Under the pieces are notes generated by a model, which was not told where the DNA came from, ran no database searches, and worked only from the letters and a program-made list of their open reading frames with translations. Position numbers and translations under genes: made by a program. DNA of 64,000 nt, taken from the IMG/VR virus record IMGVR_UViG_2609460060_000003, positions 1 to 64,000 of that record; one strand, written 5' to 3'. Below, one piece after another: positions 38,954-49,729 of this stretch (the first letter of the stretch is position 1; every line of letters begins with the position of its first letter). The stretch comes from a virus. Lineage: Duplodnaviria > Heunggongvirae > Uroviricota > Caudoviricetes.

Positions 38954-39955
38954 TTAAGGCTTCGGCTTTTTATCGAGGCTCTTTCTAAGGATATGCCCAA
39001 TCATCCTGTCGAGTTCTTCCTGTAGCTCTTTTGAAAGTCGATTAAACTCATAAGAAAATGCACGGCCTTTCACGCGCTTCCTTGCAAAGCGATCCTTGTC
39101 CTCAAATTTCCATAATTCAGTAACTACGGACTTATCTTTAGAACCTTTATCCGTGAGTAGTGAGGCTTCCTTTGTTATCAAGCGCAGGATTTTATTTTTA
39201 ACTTCATCTTCGGCCATTTCTTCAATGGATAAGATGTCGTTTATTTCCGGGGATATGTTTTGAATAAGCTGATCAAACTCTAAATTCTTGTTCCCCATTT
39301 CGTCGCCAACAGCACAAAGCGTTTTGTAGTCCGAAAAGGTTAATTCCGACTGAACAGGGAAAAGGGCGACTAATTCTTCCGGAGCACTCGCTGCCTGGAG
39401 AGCACGCGTGACCTTCGCCTGAGACAGCCCTTCTTTGGCTGCAATATCCTTCTGACTCATCCCATCATTTTTCATTCGCATCAAACGCAGACCTATTTCT
39501 CGAATGCTGTGCTGCAATGCTGTCTGAACGTCTTTCGCTAAATTTTGCGCTTCCTGAACGCTGATCTCCTGGTCCGTGACTAAAACCCGCAACCCTACGT
39601 TCTCTAAGATGGCAGAAGCTCGACGCCGGGAACCATCCAAAATTTCAATTTTCCCTGTAGCCCGTCTAACACCTATTGCAGGGTAAAATTGCTGATGCTT
39701 AATAGTGCTTCGGATACTTTTTAATGATTTTGGCGTAAGAGATGCCTGGTCACGCCCGTTGTTATGCTGATCAACAAAGGTATCGCTTTCTACCTGGTTC
39801 GGAGGTATTACCTCTTCAATAAATGTGGCCTGGCGACCAGTTGATAACTTGAATACCTGCTCGACTCGATCGCCAGAGGCTGAAGAACTATCAAATCCGC
39901 TTAATATTGAAGGATTAAGGGTTCGCCCAATTGTTGGTCTGTTTTTCTTTGACAT
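38954..39955 (-). CDS. parB: Partition protein ParB
   Basis: 333 aa; ParB-type HTH region; downstream of parA and upstream of parS. Confidence 0.9.
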   Translation of the reverse strand: MSKKNRPTIGRTLNPSILSGFDSSSASGDRVEQVFKLSTGRQATFIEEVIPPNQVESDTFVDQHNNGRDQASLTPKSLKSIRSTIKHQQFYPAIGVRRATGKIEILDGSRRRASAILENVGLRVLVTDQEISVQEAQNLAKDVQTALQHSIREIGLRLMRMKNDGMSQKDIAAKEGLSQAKVTRALQAASAPEELVALFPVQSELTFSDYKTLCAVGDEMGNKNLEFDQLIQNISPEINDILSIEEMAEDEVKNKILRLITKEASLLTDKGSKDKSVVTELWKFEDKDRFARKRVKGRAFSYEFNRLSKELQEELDRMIGHILRKSLDKKPKP

Positions 39956-39971
39956 GGGGGGTTCTTACTCC

Positions 39972-41168
39972 TCAGTTAGATCTGATAAATTCAATACGGT
40001 CAAAAACTGCTTTAGCAAAATCTTCCGCGGCAATTCGCGCGTTCTTCAATGCATCAGCACTACCAACATACGTTGCCGGGTTAGCTGAAATAACAGTGTC
40101 AAAAGACTCGCCGCAACGTTCAAAACCGTCAAGGCGAGGGAGGACGACATCGAGCATATCCCCACCGAACACTTCTTTAGCCAGGCTATGGCAATACTTA
40201 TGATCTGCCTTGTTACTCAACTTGGACATAAAACCAATGTTAGTCGCAAGCTGGCACTCGCAGCCTTCATCCGAAATGAGTTTTACCAACTCAGGAAGGC
40301 GGGCAACGTATTTAAGCGATGAGTGGAAATCGACAGTTGCTGGCGGCAGAGGTGTAAACAGTATATTGGCCGAGGCCAAAGCATTTTTCAGGAAGGCGTC
40401 AAGGTGAGGACCACTATCAACGAGGATAAAGTCATAATCGCTCTTCAGCTTATCAATCACATTTTCTTTCAGGACAGCATGGATGTTCTGACCCGGTAGA
40501 TGCTCATTGCACAGCTCTCTCCAATCGGATGCAATAAAGGCATCGTCAATCGACGCAGGCATAACGTCAACCCCAGGTACAACAGAAGGAACAATAAACT
40601 CCTCTAACAGCTCTTCACGGCTTACATTCTGCAACATAGCCTGTGCAGATGTTGCGTTTACGATACCAATAGAGTGTTTATGGCTTAAAAACATCGTTGC
40701 TGAAGATTGCGGATCAAGGTCAATAACCAGAATCCTTAAATCTTCCATCAGAAGATGAGGGTGAGCACGCATTGCATGCGCCAGAGAAACCGTCGATACA
40801 GTTTTAGACACACCGCCTTTAAGATTGGAGATGAAAATCACATACGCTTCGCTGTAGCGATCCCGGTATTTTGGCACTCCGCGATGTTCATATATGTCAA
40901 TGATGTTCTGAATTGACATCGCATATTTCATTGAAGAGCCAGCAGGGCGTTTATCGAAAACATAACCCTTTTCTTCCATTTCACTTACGGCATAGTCAAC
41001 GTTCGCTCGAGTCAGTAGAGGCAGTTTTGCCAGTGCCGCTTTCGCATAGACCTGGTAAAACTCGTTCGCGTGTAGCTCATCCTTTTGCAACTGTACTTGT
41101 TCAGTCAGAACATTGAGCATTCTGTTTGCTCTTTGAGCAACCTTGTGAAGCTGGCTGGAATCACTCAT
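39972..41168 (-). CDS. parA: Partition ATPase ParA
   Basis: 398 aa; Walker A KGGVSKT; N-terminal DNA-binding extension typical of type Ia ParA. Confidence 0.9.
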   Translation of the reverse strand: MSDSSQLHKVAQRANRMLNVLTEQVQLQKDELHANEFYQVYAKAALAKLPLLTRANVDYAVSEMEEKGYVFDKRPAGSSMKYAMSIQNIIDIYEHRGVPKYRDRYSEAYVIFISNLKGGVSKTVSTVSLAHAMRAHPHLLMEDLRILVIDLDPQSSATMFLSHKHSIGIVNATSAQAMLQNVSREELLEEFIVPSVVPGVDVMPASIDDAFIASDWRELCNEHLPGQNIHAVLKENVIDKLKSDYDFILVDSGPHLDAFLKNALASANILFTPLPPATVDFHSSLKYVARLPELVKLISDEGCECQLATNIGFMSKLSNKADHKYCHSLAKEVFGGDMLDVVLPRLDGFERCGESFDTVISANPATYVGSADALKNARIAAEDFAKAVFDRIEFIRSN

Positions 41169-41307
41169 CGAAAGTCATCCTTTATGCTGTATTTTTGAAT
41201 TTAATTAAAAATGCTGCATAAAATAATAATGTATGCGTAGATGCTTGTACATAGCATTCTCTGCATGTTTGGTTCATTTTGCACGATAGAGAGTTGCAAG
41301 GAGGGCA

Positions 41308-41329
41308 CAAAAAAGCCCCGTTCAGGGGC
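41308..41329 (-). terminator. Intrinsic terminator after the T5orf172-domain gene
   Basis: On the minus strand GCCCCTGAACGGGGC followed by TTTTTT. Confidence 0.6.
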
Positions 41330-41336
41330 ATCAGTG

Positions 41337-42146
41337 TTATTTGTTAAGAGCTGCGAATAATCGTTCGAAATCGATAGTATCTATAGCACGCGTAAGCGCC
41401 GGAAGTTCAGCCTCAAAGCACCCGTTTCGATCGTAAAAGAAGGGACCGAAGAGCGAGGCATGTTGGATTCTACTTCGCCCCAGTCCGGACACACAGTTAA
41501 GCCCATTACCGGCTAAAAGGCTAAAAAACTTCTCTGGATTATCGTGGTAAAGCTGGGAATCAATGGTGGCGGTTAACTCTTCCATAGGGAAGCACACCCG
41601 CCCTGTCTCCCAGGGATATTTAGTCCGAAGCGTAAACATCGCTTTCAGCAATTCACATTGAGCGCGGATCGCGTCAGGTTCATAGCCAGATATGGAGACA
41701 TAAGCCACATCCCTCATTCCTGCGTCATCTTTGAAAGTCACGATAGAAGTAACATCCAGTTCTTTTTCGAAAGAGCGAGCAGCATCTACTGGACGCTGAA
41801 GTAAATCATTCGACTTAATCCGCTCGAGAATCCCTCCCCACATATCATTTAGATATTCGATATGAGCCAAAACCTTATCAAGACACTCTCGTGTAAACCA
41901 TTCAGTATGCCCGCCACCGGCGCTTTTCTCCCACGGCGCATTCCAGGGGAAAAAGGTTGCGTGTAAAGCCCGCTCAAGATTAACTATTGCCAAACGCGTA
42001 CCACGATAGACCCGTGAAAGCGCAAAATCGGGATTCACTTGTAGCCCTTTAAACCGTGCCAATGGACCACATGAAATGCCGATTTTAAAAGTATCTCCGT
42101 TCTCCGGCACCAGAACGTAGAGGTAGTGTTGTTTCTCTTCTTGCAT
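41337..42146 (-). CDS. T5orf172 (GIY-YIG-like) domain protein with C-terminal domain of unknown function
   Basis: N-terminus HYLYVLVPENGDTFKIGIS...LERALHATF...HTEWF matches the T5orf172/MUG113 domain pattern; sits between the incA iterons and the parA promoter; has its own terminator. Confidence 0.6.
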   Translation of the reverse strand: MQEEKQHYLYVLVPENGDTFKIGISCGPLARFKGLQVNPDFALSRVYRGTRLAIVNLERALHATFFPWNAPWEKSAGGGHTEWFTRECLDKVLAHIEYLNDMWGGILERIKSNDLLQRPVDAARSFEKELDVTSIVTFKDDAGMRDVAYVSISGYEPDAIRAQCELLKAMFTLRTKYPWETGRVCFPMEELTATIDSQLYHDNPEKFFSLLAGNGLNCVSGLGRSRIQHASLFGPFFYDRNGCFEAELPALTRAIDTIDFERLFAALNK

Positions 42147-42174
42147 ATCAATACCACTGCTTGATGAGAACCGC

Positions 42175-42440
42175 GCAAATGTTGACTATGCGCGAAAGTT
42201 AATGTGAATAGTTGACTATGCGCGATGTGACTACAGTCAAAAGTTGACTGTAGTCGATTTAACTCCACCAAAAATCGACTATGTAAGATATTGTCGGGAG
42301 AAACGTTGACTATACGCGATGAAATGACCCTAAAAGCCATCTCAATAGCAGCTTGCAGAATATTGACGCCAGCAAAAATCCACCAGCGTCAACGAATGTC
42401 GCCTATAGTCAACTTCTCGCTATCGCATATAGTCAATATT
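42175..42440. repeat. incA-type iteron array (RepA binding sites, copy-number control)
   Basis: About nine copies of GTTGACTATGCGCG-like cores in both orientations. Confidence 0.65.
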
Positions 42441-43323
42441 ATGGATTGCGCTTATGGATCTGGAAGCCGATTTTCCTGCCGTTTTTTATCTCTGAAAATT
42501 TAAGATATTCAATAGCTTCCAAATCTTTCATGGCTTTTCTGATAACGCTATTTTGCACGCTAACGGATGATTTGAGATTAAGCCTCGCTCTAAGGCGCTC
42601 AATGCTGACAGGTGCCGGGTTGGCGGGTAGAGCCTCAAAGAATGTATACAGTACCTTGGCCGTCTCTTTGCGCCCTAGTTTATCCAGCATCTTCAGCTTC
42701 AGGATTCGCTTATAGTCAACATAGTAAAGTTCAGATAGCTGTTTCTGCGGCTGGATCTCGATAACATCAAGCTCGGTATTCAGGCTGCTATATGCCAACA
42801 AGTTGACGTTAATGTTATTGAGATGACCTTTTGCCGCCGGGAAGCGGAATTTGACAACTGTCTGCTGAATGCGTGTCAGAGAGTCATCAATACTTTTACG
42901 GAACGCCTTTGAAAGGCGCTTACGTGGATAGCCGCATCGATCGGCAAACTCGGAGAATGGCAGGGTGATTATGCCGTCATCATCAGGTGCGTAGTCAAAC
43001 AACGCGGAGGTTATGCCCACCCACACCTTAAAATCAGTATCCATATCCAGGCGTGGACCATGAATTTCAATTCCCTCATAGCCTTCCTGCTCAACAATTT
43101 TGAGGCTTGATAGTTCTTCAGTTGCGTTCGTTGTGTTTGTTGTAACTGACGATCCGCGACGTAGCGCCACATTGGTAGATTTTAAGGTTGGCACAAACAC
43201 ACCTAAGCGCAACAAAGCGATGGGTTGTATAGTGCTGTTGTTATTGGGCTTCAGGCTGTGGATTTCTCCTGTATTTCCTGCAACTTCTTCAACGCTAAGG
43301 AAGCCTTTACTTTCTTCCGGCAT
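42439..43323 (-). CDS. repA: Plasmid replication initiator RepA
   Basis: ATG 43323 with GGAG RBS (the track ORF starts at an upstream TTG, 43359); flanked by iteron arrays on both sides. Confidence 0.8.
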   Translation of the reverse strand: MPEESKGFLSVEEVAGNTGEIHSLKPNNNSTIQPIALLRLGVFVPTLKSTNVALRRGSSVTTNTTNATEELSSLKIVEQEGYEGIEIHGPRLDMDTDFKVWVGITSALFDYAPDDDGIITLPFSEFADRCGYPRKRLSKAFRKSIDDSLTRIQQTVVKFRFPAAKGHLNNINVNLLAYSSLNTELDVIEIQPQKQLSELYYVDYKRILKLKMLDKLGRKETAKVLYTFFEALPANPAPVSIERLRARLNLKSSVSVQNSVIRKAMKDLEAIEYLKFSEIKNGRKIGFQIHKRNP

Positions 43324-43359
43324 CACGGTTTCTCCATGTGTGGCGCGGCCTGACGTCAA

Positions 43360-43620
43360 TTTGGATGGCTGTTATCAACAGCTGTGAATATTCAGACTCT
43401 AAAATCGCTTACAGTCAATGTTTCTGTCGCGTATAGTCAACAATAAATCGCGTGCAGTCAACAATAAATCGTGCACAGTCAACATAAAATCGCGTATAGT
43501 CAATGTTGATCCCATTTCAGGCCAGTAATGACGCGGCTTACAGCGATCCGGGATCTTCTTTGGATCTTCCTAGGTTCTCTTTAGGATCTGTTTATTGGAT
43601 CTATGCTGTGGATAAGTTGA
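43360..43620. other. Plasmid replication origin (oriR): DnaA box-like sites, five incC iterons, GATC cluster
   Basis: TTATCAACA near 43386; five AGTCAA-core iterons at ~21-bp period (43402-43505); five GATC within 43545-43601; perfect DnaA box TGTGGATAA at 43608-43616. Confidence 0.7.
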
Positions 43621-43658
43621 ATAAACCGGCCAACAAAGCCGGTTGGAAGGAAGTCATA

Positions 43659-44051
43659 TTATTCTACGCTTTCGATAAGAAGACCATGTTCATAACATTT
43701 AAGCTCATCGCCTTCATACAGGAATTGGTATCCAACACCACCATCTTCATGGACATTAGGGAATAACTCATAACTCACTGAAGAGCAAATCACACCAATG
43801 CAGCGATCAACTCCTTCTCGTTCTTCAGTGCTGAAAAAATCCTCTTCGGTAAGAACATGAGTACATTGCTCATCAGCATAGGTCGGAAATACATGCTCAA
43901 TGCAATCCGGGTGTTTTAAACCAAGCTGATCGGCAAGCTCGAAAGCACGACGGTATTGTTCAGATCCTGGCTTGCCAACAGTGATTTGCTCAATTTTGTA
44001 GATTGAAGTCGCTTTGTTGATAGTTTGCTTTACTGTTACTTTATCAGACAT
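43659..44051 (-). CDS. Hypothetical protein
   Basis: 130 aa ORF adjacent to the origin. Confidence 0.35.
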   Translation of the reverse strand: MSDKVTVKQTINKATSIYKIEQITVGKPGSEQYRRAFELADQLGLKHPDCIEHVFPTYADEQCTHVLTEEDFFSTEEREGVDRCIGVICSSVSYELFPNVHEDGGVGYQFLYEGDELKCYEHGLLIESVE

Positions 44052-47124: not shown

Positions 47125-49709
47125 AAGAGCTGTGCTATGGATCTGTTTGCAGTGGAATTGAAGCCGCGAGTATTGCCTGGGAACCGTTGGGTATGCGTCC
47201 GGCGTGGTTTGCTGAAATCGAGCCTTTTCCATCTGCCGTTCTTGCGCACCGCTGGCCCCATGTCGCCAACCTTGGCGACATGACAAAACTTGCCAAAAAA
47301 GTCCTGGCTGGGGAAATCGAATCCCCTGATGTGCTCGTCGGGGGAACACCTTGTCAGGCATTCAGTATCGCTGGATTACGTGGTGGGCTTGATGATGAGC
47401 GTGGCGCGCTAACTTTAAAGTATGTGGAGCTTGCAAATGCAATTGACGACAAACGGGCTGAGTCATTTCTCAAACCAGCCGTTATCGTCTGGGAAAATGT
47501 CCCAGGAGTCTTGTCATCGGCAGATAACGCCTTCGGATGTTTCCTTGCCGGATTGGCTGGAGAAGATGCGCCATTTGAACCAGGTGATCGACCTGAATCA
47601 GGAAAAAGTAACGCGTTCTGGCGGTGGGATGGCAAAACCGGTTGCCATGCTCCAAAGTGGCCGCAGTGTGGTTGTATTTATGGACCGCAGCGAAAGGTGG
47701 CCTGGAGAATCCTTGATGCCCAATACTTCGGAGTGGCACAACGACGCCGACGCGTGTTTGTTGTCGCAAGTGCTCGAACAGACCTCGATCCCGCAACGGT
47801 ACTTTTTGAGTTCGAAGGCGTGCGCCGGGATATTGCGCCGAGCAGAGGCGAGGGGAAGGAAGTTGCCGGAAATGTTGGAAATGGCATTAAAAGCGGGAGC
47901 CATTGGGATAACCCTGTAAATCCGCACCCGACACTTAACCAGTCACACAATACTGGCGGGATCGGCGCAAGTAACCAGGAGATTTTTGCGCAGCGCGGAA
48001 GTGGGCTTGTTGGTGCTTATCGAATGGTTGCATTTGGCGAATATGCTGATGATGAGACTGCTTCTACTGTCAAGGCCAGAGATTTTAAAGATGCAACCGA
48101 TTTAGCAGTTTTCAGTAGTACTGGTGCTGGTATTTGGCGTGAAGGTGCAGGCACTCTTCGTGCCAGATCACAAGAAAGTCACGAACATCTGGCAGTGATG
48201 GCTATTCATGGAACACAAGATCCTGATGTTAATTGTGAATTGGCACATACTATTGGTCGTAACCATGGTCAAGAAAATGCAGTCGTAGCTTTTTCCTGCA
48301 AAGATTATGGACAAGATGTTTCTATTGAATGTTCTCCGACTTTACGATCTGGTAATGCTGTTAATAGCAATCCAAATGCAGGATGCCCACCAGCTGTTGC
48401 GTATTCGCTACAACATGCACAAATTGGGCGAAAAGATGATGCTGGACCGCAGGGTAAAGGGTGGCAAAAAGAGATAAGTTTTACTCTTGATTCCCGCGCT
48501 ACAGCTGACGCCGTTGCGTTATCTTTTGGGGGGCAGAAAAGTATTGAAAAAGGCAATTTAGGTGAGAATGGTTACTTACCTCATATGATGAGTGTTCGCC
48601 GTCTTACCCCTGTTGAATGTGAAAGGCTGCAAGGTTTTCCTGATGGGCATACGTTGATCCCTACGGAAAAGCGTAAAAAAGTTTCTTCAGATGAACTGGC
48701 ATACCTTCGCAATAACTATCCTGATTTAAGTGAAGAAGAGGCCGCGATGCTTGCAGCTGACGGACCGCGTTACAAAGCGATCGGCAATAGTATGGCGATA
48801 CCAGTAATGCGCTGGATTGGCGATCGGATTGCCAAGGCTGCATGTCGGCAGAAGGAAGGGAGTGAAACAAAAGAGCGAAAAGTTAAACCAGCGGCAGAAT
48901 TCGAACGGTCCATATTCAAATGGGCTGGTGGAAAATTTGGTGTTCTGGAACAAATCTTTCGCTATTTGCCAGAAGGGAAGCGCCTGATTGAACCTTTCGT
49001 TGGTGGCGGAGCTGTCTTCATGAATGCCGGATACCAGGAAAATCTGCTAAATGATGTGAATGCTGACCTGATTAACTTTTACAAGACTTTGCAACGTGAG
49101 GAACGTTCACTTATCACTCTGGCGCATCGGTTTTTCCAGGACTACAACACACAGGAAGGATACCTGGCAGTACGGAGTGCGTTTAACAAACAAGTCTATG
49201 ATGATTTACATCGCGCAGCGGCGTTTTTGTTCCTGAACCGACATTGTTTTAACGGATTGACGCGTTACAACCAGGCCGGTGAGTTCAATGTCGGTTATGG
49301 GAAGTATAAAACTCCGTATTTCCCATTACAGGAGATGGAAGCCTTCCTCGGTGCGGAAGGGCGGTCTGAGTTTGTATGCGGTGATTTTGCAGCGGTGATT
49401 GAAGCTGCCGGAGAAGGTGATGTCATCTTTTGCGATCCGCCGTATGAACCGCTTCCAAATACAGAGGGATTCACGAACTATTCCGGTCATGACTTTAAGT
49501 TTGAAGAGCAAAAACGCCTGGTGTCTCTGTTGACGGATGCTCATCGTCGAGGTGCAAAGGTTCTCATTACTAACAGTGGCGCGCCAAACATCAGAGAGCT
49601 TTATCATGACAGTGGCTTCAGAGTGGAACATCTTTTTGCCAGACGTTCTGTGTCTTGTAAGGGGGACACTCGAGGTGTAGCTCATGACGTTTTGGGTATA
49701 TTGCTCTAA
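47121..49709 (+). CDS. dmt: Bifunctional DNA methyltransferase (C5-cytosine MTase-like N-terminal domain with PCQ motif; Dam-like N6-adenine MTase C-terminal domain with DPPY motif)
   Basis: [12 protein letters not shown] (m5C motif IV) in the N-terminal part; WAGGKFGVL...DPPYEPL in the C-terminal part. Confidence 0.85.
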
Positions 49710-49729
49710 TAAATTTATTAGTGTAATAT
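49700..49729 (+). promoter_or_regulatory. Perfect C1 operator overlapping a promoter (TTGCTC-N17-TAATAT)
   Basis: ATTGCTCTAATAAATTT exact consensus at 49700-49716, overlapping the dmt stop. Confidence 0.6.

What the first reader, a model, noticed from the sequence alone, without database searches (positions are those of the whole stretch)
41308..42175. T5orf172-domain gene inserted between the incA iterons and the parA promoter
A 269-aa protein with a clear N-terminal T5orf172/GIY-YIG-like domain and an uncharacterised C-terminal domain sits, with its own terminator, between the copy-control iterons and parA. In P1 as recalled, incA is followed directly by parA. T5orf172 domains recur in phage-encoded and anti-phage single-gene systems; the position inside the maintenance module suggests cargo with a defence, anti-defence or addiction role.
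Basis: partly seen in the sequence, partly recalled or inferred. Interest (0 to 1): 0.7.

Follow-up and report, generated by a model that had tools for sequence, protein, structure and literature searches.

The report
Nuclease gene riding an alternative P1 replicon
A real but uncharacterised nuclease-like gene sits between the replication and partition genes of this P1-like phage-plasmid; it is not a fresh insertion but a constant, dispensable, fast-evolving passenger of the common 'p0111' replication cassette, and it may help that cassette compete with the classical P1 replicon.

Summary
Window 41337-42146 (minus strand) encodes a 269-aa protein with an N-terminal T5orf172 domain (above Pfam's cut-off) and a C-terminal half with no detectable relatives. 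A terminator follows it. It lies between incA-like iterons and the P1 par promoter.

"Inserted into P1's maintenance module" is misleading. The whole replicon here is the known p0111 type, as in RCS47, SJ46 and JL22. RepA is only 42% identical to P1 RepA and the iterons differ. P1 homology stops 16 bp upstream of the Ppar -35, just beyond the gene's terminator.

The gene accompanies this replicon in about 400 PLSDB plasmids, with no empty site, and occurs in 412 of 5,426 complete E. coli genomes. A lineage about 72% identical in DNA has the same order: Rep (84% identical), iterons, homologue (44%), ParA (89%).

It is dispensable: nonsense and frameshift alleles occur on full-size plasmids. Constraint is weak (pN/pS 0.38, against 0.00-0.05 for repA, parA and parB), yet the GIY-YIG-like motif residues never vary.

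Best reading: a free-standing, homing-endonuclease-like nuclease at a module-exchange boundary, acting in competition between elements. This is inferred, not shown. No match to known defence systems. The gene is noted in the literature as unknown. A new member of a known kind; moderate interest.

The parts
41337..42146 (-). T5orf172-domain gene, 269 aa, stop codon included
   Evidence: ORF list. Pfam PF10544 26.2 bits against a cut-off of 20. Full-length match to phrog_2876, function unknown. Annotated 'GIY-YIG nuclease family protein' in RefSeq records.
41832..42146 (-). N-terminal T5orf172 (GIY-YIG superfamily) domain, aa 1-105
   Evidence: Pfam match at aa 8-85. 65% identical to the L003 homologue. 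Y8, Y10, K21, I22, G23, R31, H62, E82, W83 and F84 are invariant in both lineages and in 9 alleles. Still alignable at the DNA level with L003.
41340..41831 (-). Orphan C-terminal domain, aa 106-269, possibly containing a winged helix at about aa 157-231
41305..41329 (-). Intrinsic-terminator-like hairpin (41329-41315) plus T run, ending the rep-side transcription unit before Ppar
   Evidence: Terminator scan. RNA fold -11.9 kcal/mol, z=-2.4. A hairpin also follows the stop codon in L003.
41223..41267 (-). P1-type par promoter Ppar (-35 at 41251-41246, -10 at 41228-41223), and the end of P1 homology at 41267/41268
   Evidence: Alignment to P1 and P1's annotation. Promoter scan. 100% identity to P1 over 41169-41267.
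42181..42437 (.). incA-like iteron array of the p0111-type replicon: six copies of TCGCGTATAGTCAAC-like repeats, four in one orientation and two in the other. The nearest copy ends 34 nt upstream of the gene's ATG.
   Evidence: The same layout is seen in L003 and in CP042620.1.
42439..43323 (-). repA of the p0111 type (294 aa from the ATG; the longest ORF runs to 43359)
   Evidence: Rep3_N and Rep3_C Pfam domains. 42% identical to P1 RepA. RefSeq annotation in RCS47.
43405..43504 (.). Five origin iterons at 21-bp spacing (equivalent to oriR/incC)
41268..43640 (.). The whole alternative replicon cassette that replaces P1's oriR-repA-incA. The T5orf172 gene is its par-proximal terminal gene.
   Evidence: Alignments to P1. 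The flanks are 99-100% identical to P1 while the interior is unalignable. Equivalent boundaries in L003 against JK004.
38954..41168 (-). P1-type parA (39972-41168) and parB (38954-39955), downstream neighbours outside the cassette
   Evidence: Pfam. Identity to P1: parA 99.2% nt (99.7% aa), parB 99.7% nt.

Best explanation
The gene encodes a free-standing nuclease of the T5orf172 (GIY-YIG superfamily) kind. It belongs to the p0111-type replicon cassette of P1-like phage-plasmids and sits at that cassette's par-proximal edge.

Shown: it always travels with this repA and iteron set. It is not needed for plasmid replication or maintenance. Its catalytic-type motif residues are conserved, while the rest of the protein, above all the C-terminal half, evolves much faster than the neighbouring genes. 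It lies exactly where homology between IncY-type and p0111-type genomes breaks.

Inferred: the N-terminal domain cuts DNA. The C-terminal domain, possibly a winged helix, supplies target recognition that shifts quickly. The protein acts in competition between related elements, like a homing endonuclease or marker-exclusion nuclease. On this view it cuts a P1-like genome that lacks it (IncY type) near the incA/Ppar junction. Repair from the p0111-type genome, using the near-identical flanks, would then copy the gene together with the adjacent replicon. Alternatively, the rival genome would simply be destroyed.

Expression is probably low. Transcription may read through from the RepA-controlled promoter across the iterons, since no separate promoter was found and the Shine-Dalgarno sequence is weak.
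For: Domain: Pfam T5orf172 above cut-off in both lineages. The closest outside relatives are phage 'endonuclease' families (phrog_681 E=1.6e-9; Vibrio phage T5orf172 proteins). The residues I align by eye with GIY-YIG Tyr, Arg and Glu (Y10, R31, E82) are invariant across 44% divergence and in 9 alleles. T5orf172 nuclease activity that depends on this Glu was shown for Odn (PMC8263062).

Architecture: a nuclease domain plus a second domain at the other end of the protein, as described for homing endonuclease genes (HEGs) (PMC10448857).

Boundary position: P1 homology ends at 41267/41268, 48 bp beyond the terminator hairpin. The same holds in L003 against JK004. The flanks are as similar to IncY P1 (99-100%) as to other p0111 plasmids, so the two types recombine freely around a sharply bounded cassette. 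[quoted passage not shown]

Dispensable and decaying alleles: S112* (clusters of 151 and 43 member sequences, at least 22 contigs), Q228* in an SJ46-identical Salmonella plasmid (p14146), and frameshifts on 93-97 kb contigs.

Weak constraint: pN/pS is 0.38, against 0.02 for repA, 0.00 for parA and 0.05 for parB. There are 9 distinct proteins in 9 sequences, while ParA is identical in all 7 full-length sequences compared.

Domain-specific divergence: N-domain 65% and C-domain 32% identity, against Rep 84% and ParA 89%.

Long-term retention of an intact frame in two lineages argues for function.
Against: No nuclease activity, target or homing has been shown for this protein. Within the p0111 type there is no presence/absence polymorphism (0 empty sites in 545 records), unlike typical sporadic HEGs. 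The incA/Ppar junction is a module boundary even without the gene, since P1 and P7 share the replicon but differ in par. The position could therefore be a consequence of the boundary and not its cause. DNA binding by the C-terminal domain is not established: the AF2 models are poor (pLDDT 50-54) and the fold matches are weak. The Zn-finger DNA-binding domains usual in phage T5orf172 HEGs are absent, and the domain order is reversed relative to Odn. Homing would have to convert about 2.4 kb of heterologous replicon, a long tract. pN/pS of 0.38 together with stop alleles also fits simple relaxation of a gene that is losing its function.
Confidence: 0.45

Rival explanations
1. Defence or exclusion cargo. 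A single-gene nuclease expressed from the plasmid prophage cuts unrelated incoming phages or plasmids and so protects the lysogen.
For: It has a nuclease-type domain, is dispensable, and is polymorphic with a rapidly evolving second domain. It lies in the region expected to be expressed during lysogeny, with no C1 operator nearby. Nucleases are common in conflicts between elements (PMC8263062).
Against: No match to any of 5,027 PADLOC defence models. The gene is not in a variable cargo hotspot: it is fixed to one replicon type at one position. It has no detectable relatives in other defence contexts; the family is confined to P1-like elements.
Confidence: 0.2
2. A domesticated DNA-binding accessory of the replicon, similar to CapR. 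The protein no longer acts mainly as a nuclease. Instead it modulates rep or par expression, copy number, or handcuffing at the adjacent iterons or at Ppar.
For: It is strictly linked to the p0111 repA and iterons. The nearest iteron ends 29-34 nt before the ATG in both lineages, and the gene is probably co-transcribed with repA. There is a precedent for a T5orf172 protein domesticated as a repressor (PMC10448857).
Against: Truncated alleles persist on full-size plasmids. A related Rep with the same iteron layout works without the gene in CP042620.1. The iterons and Ppar are conserved between lineages while the C-terminal domain is only 32% identical. The catalytic-type residues are retained.
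Confidence: 0.12
3. An origin-directed nuclease similar to Odn. The C-terminal domain mimics a replication initiator's DNA-binding domain and directs cutting to the iterons or origin of a rival replicon, for example IncY P1.
Against: Profile-profile comparison of the C-terminal domain with P1 and p0111 RepA finds nothing (probability 0.2%). The structural hits come from models with pLDDT about 50 and sit among many generic winged-helix hits. IncY iterons are nearly the same in P1 and JK004, yet the C-terminal domain diverged to 32%.
Confidence: 0.08
4. A functionless relic. A once-active selfish nuclease gene is now fixed by hitch-hiking with the successful p0111 replicon and is slowly decaying.
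For: pN/pS is 0.38 with 9 of 9 proteins distinct. Premature stops occur in 2 of 9 sampled alleles, one of which was chosen because it is truncated. Truncated protein clusters are common, and the gene is disrupted by rearrangement in pTB422.
Against: pN/pS is still well below 1. The motif residues are invariant. An intact 270-aa frame is kept in a lineage where the DNA of the C-terminal half is no longer alignable.
Confidence: 0.1

Closest known systems
Free-standing T5orf172 / GIY-YIG homing endonuclease genes of phages (ICP1 T5orf172 HEGs; T4 Seg proteins; I-TevI architecture)
   Same: A T5orf172 catalytic-type domain with conserved Arg and Glu. Two-domain layout with the nuclease at one end, in the N-terminal-nuclease order of I-TevI. 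A stand-alone gene between essential genes. Located exactly at a break in homology between related genomes. Degenerate alleles in the population (PMC10448857).
   Different: The C-terminal domain is an orphan with none of the usual Zn-finger (CapR/DUF723), AP2 or HTH profiles. There is no empty-site polymorphism within its replicon type. It resides in the plasmid-maintenance module of a temperate phage-plasmid. Homing and cleavage are untested.
Odn (ICP1 Gp88), the origin-directed T5orf172 nuclease
   Same: A T5orf172 nuclease in a contest that revolves around replicon identity. Replicon-module swapping is seen in the opposing elements.
   Different: Odn's DNA-binding domain is recognisably homologous to a RepA_N domain and lies N-terminal to the nuclease. 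Here there is no sequence similarity to any Rep and the domain order is reversed.
The p0111-type replicon of P1-like phage-plasmids (RCS47, SJ46, JL22; PlasmidFinder 'p0111')
   Same: The window carries this replicon. Its repA region is 98-100% identical to these records, and the gene corresponds to RCS47 FDJ53_gp090 and apparently to JL22 'gp57', the one unknown gene that paper reports alongside repA'.
   Different: Nothing differs. The literature only records it as an unknown gene that replaces IncY repA together with repA' (PMC9603915).
The P1/P7 IncY replicon (oriR-repA-incA followed by par)
   Same: The same architecture: five origin iterons, repA, a downstream iteron array in two orientations, then Ppar-parA-parB. 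The initiator is homologous (42% identical).
   Different: Different iteron sequence and therefore different specificity. IncY has no gene between incA and Ppar.

Membership tests
T5orf172 domain family (Pfam PF10544, GIY-YIG clan) | Profile match above the curated gathering score | tested here: met
   26.2 bits against a cut-off of 20, aa 8-85, profile positions 2-87 of 101. The L003 homologue scores 28 bits.
T5orf172 domain family (Pfam PF10544, GIY-YIG clan) | Conserved core motif residues (Tyr of the first strand, K/Y-I-G, catalytic Arg and Glu) | tested here: met
   Y8/Y10, K21-I22-G23, R31 and E82-W83-F84 are invariant between lineages 44% identical and in 9 alleles. The mapping to I-TevI R27/E75 and Odn E180 is by eye and is an inference.
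T5orf172 domain family (Pfam PF10544, GIY-YIG clan) | Endonuclease activity | not testable with these tools
   Needs purified protein. Activity has been shown only for other members, such as Odn (PMC8263062).
Free-standing homing endonuclease gene (HEG) | A nuclease domain joined to a sequence-specific DNA-binding domain | tested here: inconclusive
Free-standing homing endonuclease gene (HEG) | Presence or absence among otherwise collinear close relatives | tested here: inconclusive
   The gene is absent from IncY-type P1, P7 and JK004, whose flanks are 99-100% identical. But its presence is tied to a whole replicon swap, and no empty site exists within the p0111 type (0 of 545 records).
Free-standing homing endonuclease gene (HEG) | Location next to essential genes, at the boundary of a recombination or homology tract | tested here: met
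   Homology to P1 ends at 41267/41268, just beyond the terminator. The boundary is equivalent in L003 against JK004.
Free-standing homing endonuclease gene (HEG) | Degenerate alleles (frameshifts, premature stops) in the population | tested here: met
   S112*, Q228* and several N-domain frameshift clusters on full-size contigs.
Free-standing homing endonuclease gene (HEG) | Cleavage of the HEG-less allele and biased inheritance (homing or marker exclusion) | not testable with these tools
   Requires in vitro cleavage assays and genetic crosses.
Odn-like origin-directed nuclease | A DNA-binding domain homologous to a replication initiator's DNA-binding domain | tested here: not met
Known anti-phage defence systems (PADLOC-DB v2) | Match to a defence-system protein model | tested here: not met
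   0 families at E up to 1.
   The iterons here have the core TCGCGTATAGTCAAC, unlike P1's ATGTGTGCTGGAGGG core, and RepA is 42% identical. The array is incA-like in position and layout only.

The most novel reading that the evidence does not exclude
The nuclease is a 'replicon drive'. When a p0111-type and an IncY-type P1-like genome meet in one cell, it cuts the IncY genome near the incA/Ppar junction. Repair across the near-identical par and upfA flanks then replaces the whole IncY replicon (origin, repA, incA) with the p0111 cassette plus the nuclease gene. This would be homing that carries an entire plasmid replication system as its co-converted cargo. It would explain the sharp, recurrent cassette boundaries and the IncY/p0111 dimorphism seen in two lineages of P1-like elements.
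Probability: 0.2. Interest if true: 0.7.

Novelty: new member of a known kind. Interest (0 to 1): 0.4.

Why it matters
P1-like phage-plasmids are widespread carriers of resistance and virulence genes. The p0111-type replicon with this gene is present in 412 of 5,426 complete E. coli genomes. Even so, the one non-replication gene of the cassette has never been studied.

If it is an active, targeted nuclease, it could determine which P1-like elements can coexist. It could also drive replacement of one replicon type by the other, and so explain a dimorphism that typing schemes (IncY against p0111) use without understanding.

It also offers a small, genetically tractable T5orf172 protein whose second domain has no detectable relatives. 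That would be useful for learning how this nuclease family acquires target specificity.

If it proves inert, it is simply a hitch-hiking relic, and the finding is ordinary.

Tried and rejected
1. Recent insertion into a P1 replicon. Rejected: the whole replicon differs from P1, and the gene is fixed in it.
2. Essential replication function. Rejected: truncated alleles persist on full-size plasmids, and a related Rep with the same iterons works without the gene in CP042620.1.
3. C-terminal domain derived from a Rep protein. hhalign found nothing.
4. C-terminal domain as an internal duplicate of the N-terminal domain. BLASTP and hhalign found nothing except the six residues shared by the overlapping fragments.
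5. Sequence homologues of the C-terminal domain. A full HMMER scan of 1.84 billion representatives returned only its own family. Word-indexed searches of 5.8 billion proteins returned one distant homologue. PDB sequence search, Pfam, NCBIfam and PADLOC returned nothing.
7. The 168-aa cluster P0003 as evidence of pseudogenes. Rejected: the contig starts inside the gene, so it is an assembly edge.
8. An own promoter. No sigma-70-like site on the coding strand between repA and the ATG.
9. C1 operators or Rfam elements near the gene. None.
10. Paralogues in the window. None.
11. Published functional data. None found; the only mention is as an unknown gene.

Full report
**What is there.** The minus-strand ORF at 41337-42146 encodes 269 aa.
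- Its N-terminal part (aa 8-85) matches Pfam T5orf172 (PF10544) at 26.2 bits, above the curated cut-off of 20. There are sub-threshold hits to the related MUG113 and URI-fold families.
- The whole protein matches phrog_2876, of unknown function. The N-domain matches phrog_681, 'endonuclease', at E=1.6e-9.
- PADLOC and NCBIfam give nothing.
- Eight nucleotides after the stop codon lies a GC hairpin (41329-41315) followed by a T run. It was picked up by the terminator scan and folds at -11.9 kcal/mol.
- Downstream are P1-type parA and parB.
- Upstream is a Rep_3-type repA flanked by iterons with the core TCGCGTATAGTCAAC. Five lie at 21-bp spacing upstream of repA (43405-43504). Six lie in both orientations between the repA stop and the gene's ATG (42181-42437).

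**The context is not P1's own replicon.** RepA here is only 42% identical to P1 RepA, and the iterons are unrelated in sequence to P1's.
- Alignment with P1 (NC_005856) is perfect through parA and the par operator and promoter. It stops abruptly at window 41267, 16 bp upstream of the Ppar -35.
- Similarity returns only gradually in the GATC-rich part of the origin, and fully from about 43640, before upfA.
- So a block of about 2.4 kb (41268-43640) replaces P1's oriR-repA-incA, and the T5orf172 gene is the terminal gene of that block.
- This is the known 'p0111' replicon of P1-like phage-plasmids. The region is about 98% identical to RCS47, SJ46, JL22, phi456 and others.
[quoted passage not shown] It reports 24 of 55 P1-like elements as p0111 and 31 of 55 as IncY (PMC9603915).

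**Fixed passenger, not variable cargo.**
- In PLSDB, 401 records carry the gene and 399 carry this repA.
- I built a synthetic 'empty-site' query that fuses the iteron side directly to the Ppar side, designed so that the two halves are joined only if the gene is absent. It found 0 such records among 545 matching plasmids.
- 412 of 5,426 complete E. coli genomes carry the gene, almost always on plasmids.
- Outside this group, tblastn of all plasmids and phages finds only remote N-domain matches, in Cupriavidus and in Vibrio phages.
- Two searches of billions of proteins found a single distant homologue, P0004, at 44% identity.
- That homologue lies on a 95.7-kb P1-like contig (L003) in the same order: Rep, iterons, homologue, ParA, ParB.
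- In L003, Rep is 84% and ParA 89% identical to the window's proteins, and the iteron sequence and layout are the same.
- L003's closest phage relative by ParA, Cronobacter phage JK004, has an IncY-type replicon instead: RepA 85% identical to P1's, P1-like iterons, and no gene before parA.
- L003 and JK004 lose homology at the origin and regain it about 100 bp after the T5orf172 stop codon, just before parA.
- The IncY/p0111 dimorphism, with the nuclease gene on the p0111 side and the same cassette edges, therefore exists in two lineages about 72% identical in DNA.
- P7 shows that the incA/Ppar junction is a module boundary in any case: it has the same replicon as P1 but a different par.

**Dispensable and weakly constrained, but not dead.**
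- Truncated alleles are common. A nonsense codon at position 112 accounts for clusters of 151 and 43 member sequences on at least 22 contigs.
- Several frameshifts in the N-domain occur on 93-97 kb contigs. Q228* is found in the SJ46-identical Salmonella plasmid p14146.
- A related Rep (85% identical) with the same iteron layout functions in CP042620.1 with no such gene beside it.
- Rearrangements and IS elements hit this spot. IS1294 lies between the gene and parA in pMCR_SCKP-LL83, and the gene is truncated next to an arsenic-resistance region in pTB422.
- Among nine alleles, pN/pS is 0.38 for this gene, against 0.02 for repA, 0.00 for parA, 0.05 for parB and 0.14 for upfA. All nine proteins differ, while ParA is identical in all seven full-length sequences compared.
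- Yet the residues I map by eye onto the GIY-YIG core are invariant in all alleles and in the 44% homologue: Y8/Y10, K21-I22-G23, R31 and E82-W83-F84.
- Between the two lineages the N-domain is 65% identical and the C-domain 32%. At the DNA level the N-domain still aligns but the C-domain does not.

**What the C-terminal domain is.** It remains unknown.
- It has no Pfam, NCBIfam or PDB-sequence match.
- It has no relatives in 1.84 billion representatives beyond its own family.
- It shows no similarity to RepA proteins or to the protein's own N-domain.
- With only two divergent sequences, AF2 models are poor, at pLDDT 54 and 50.
- The best-modelled stretch (aa about 157-231) has the helix-strand-helix-helix-strand-strand order of a winged helix.
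- I treat 'probably a winged-helix DNA-binding domain' as a hint only.

**Mechanism.** The best precedents are the T5orf172 genes studied in vibriophage ICP1.
- They are free-standing homing-endonuclease-like genes. They sit beside essential genes and at the edges of exchanged segments, vary by frameshifts, and combine a nuclease domain with exchangeable DNA-binding domains (PMC10448857).
- One of them, Odn, is an active nuclease. It depends on the conserved Glu and cuts a rival element's origin iterons (PMC8263062).
- The gene here shares several of these traits: the domain, the two-part layout, the boundary position, the decaying alleles and the fast-changing second domain.
- The flanks of the cassette are as similar to IncY-type P1 (99-100%) as to other p0111 plasmids. 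The two types therefore recombine around a sharply bounded block.
- I infer a sequence-specific endonuclease used in competition between related P1-like elements. It would act either by homing-like conversion of the IncY allele, carrying the replicon along, or by destroying a co-resident rival.
- The spacer upstream of Ppar, where such a target would lie, is not conserved between lineages. That would fit the rapid change of the C-domain. By contrast, the iterons of both replicon types are conserved, which argues against iteron targeting.
- No separate promoter was found on the coding strand, and the nearest iteron ends 29-34 nt before the ATG in both lineages. The gene may therefore be read through from the RepA-regulated promoter. 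This is an inference.

**Limits and rivals.** Nothing here shows activity, target or homing.
- The absence of empty sites within the p0111 type is atypical for a sporadic HEG.
- The boundary exists without the gene in the P1/P7 comparison.
- Relaxed constraint also fits a hitch-hiking relic.
- The rivals are a defence or exclusion nuclease against unrelated invaders, a domesticated regulator of the replicon, an Odn-like origin-directed nuclease, and a relic. They are scored in the Rival explanations section of this report.

**Verdict.**
- The 'inserted cargo' reading is only partly supported.
- The gene is already annotated ('GIY-YIG nuclease family protein', 'T5orf172 domain-containing protein') and noted in the literature as unknown.
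- I class it as a new member of a known kind: a free-standing T5orf172 nuclease gene with an orphan second domain.
- It is of moderate interest because it is very common, unstudied, and yields a directly testable idea about replicon dimorphism in P1-like phage-plasmids.

Noticed in passing
window 42706-42720 (inside repA); also L003 7612-7626 and L002 4330-4344: A well-matched iteron copy (TCGCTTATAGTCAAC, one mismatch) lies inside the repA coding sequence, at the equivalent place in all three lineages of this replicon type. It may be an internal RepA-binding site with a regulatory role.
   Followed up: no
L002/L008 (CP042620.1, pNCYU-26-73-5): A P1/D6-like 93.7-kb plasmid carries a Rep 85% identical to the window's, with the same iteron layout, but without the T5orf172 gene and without P1-type parAB next to it. 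A small ParA-like ATPase lies elsewhere. The record looks error-rich, with only 80 annotated features.
   Followed up: partly
L013 (MF510496.1, Klebsiella pMCR_SCKP-LL83) and L018 (NZ_CP034789.1, pTB422): The junction beside the gene attracts rearrangements. IS1294 is inserted between the T5orf172 terminator and parA in the mcr plasmid. In the 159-kb hybrid pTB422 the gene is cut to its C-terminal 173 codons, next to an arsenic-resistance region, and the p0111 repA is gone.
   Followed up: partly
window 43659-44051 (upfA): upfA, just outside the cassette, is unusually polymorphic among p0111-type plasmids. Synonymous diversity is 0.166, against 0.03-0.08 for its neighbours, and one E. albertii plasmid is only 87.8% identical. 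This suggests a second recombination or variation hotspot at the other cassette edge.
   Followed up: no
window 3040, 29237, 30898, 45854, 49700/49711, 59665, 63290, 63339: Nine matches to the P1 C1-operator consensus (recalled from memory), against 0.24 expected by chance, including an overlapping pair at 49700-49727. None is near the rep/par module. This confirms a P1-type immunity circuit in this element.
   Followed up: no
PLSDB typing of L012-L017: Typing of this replicon is inconsistent. MOB-suite (as given by PLSDB) calls it 'IncHI1B', some GenBank records call it 'RepFIB', and PlasmidFinder-based papers call it 'p0111'.
   Followed up: no
window 42234-42257: Two iteron cores meet head to head, forming a short palindrome (CAGTCAAC TTTT GACTG) in the middle of the incA-like array. 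Its significance is unknown.
   Followed up: no
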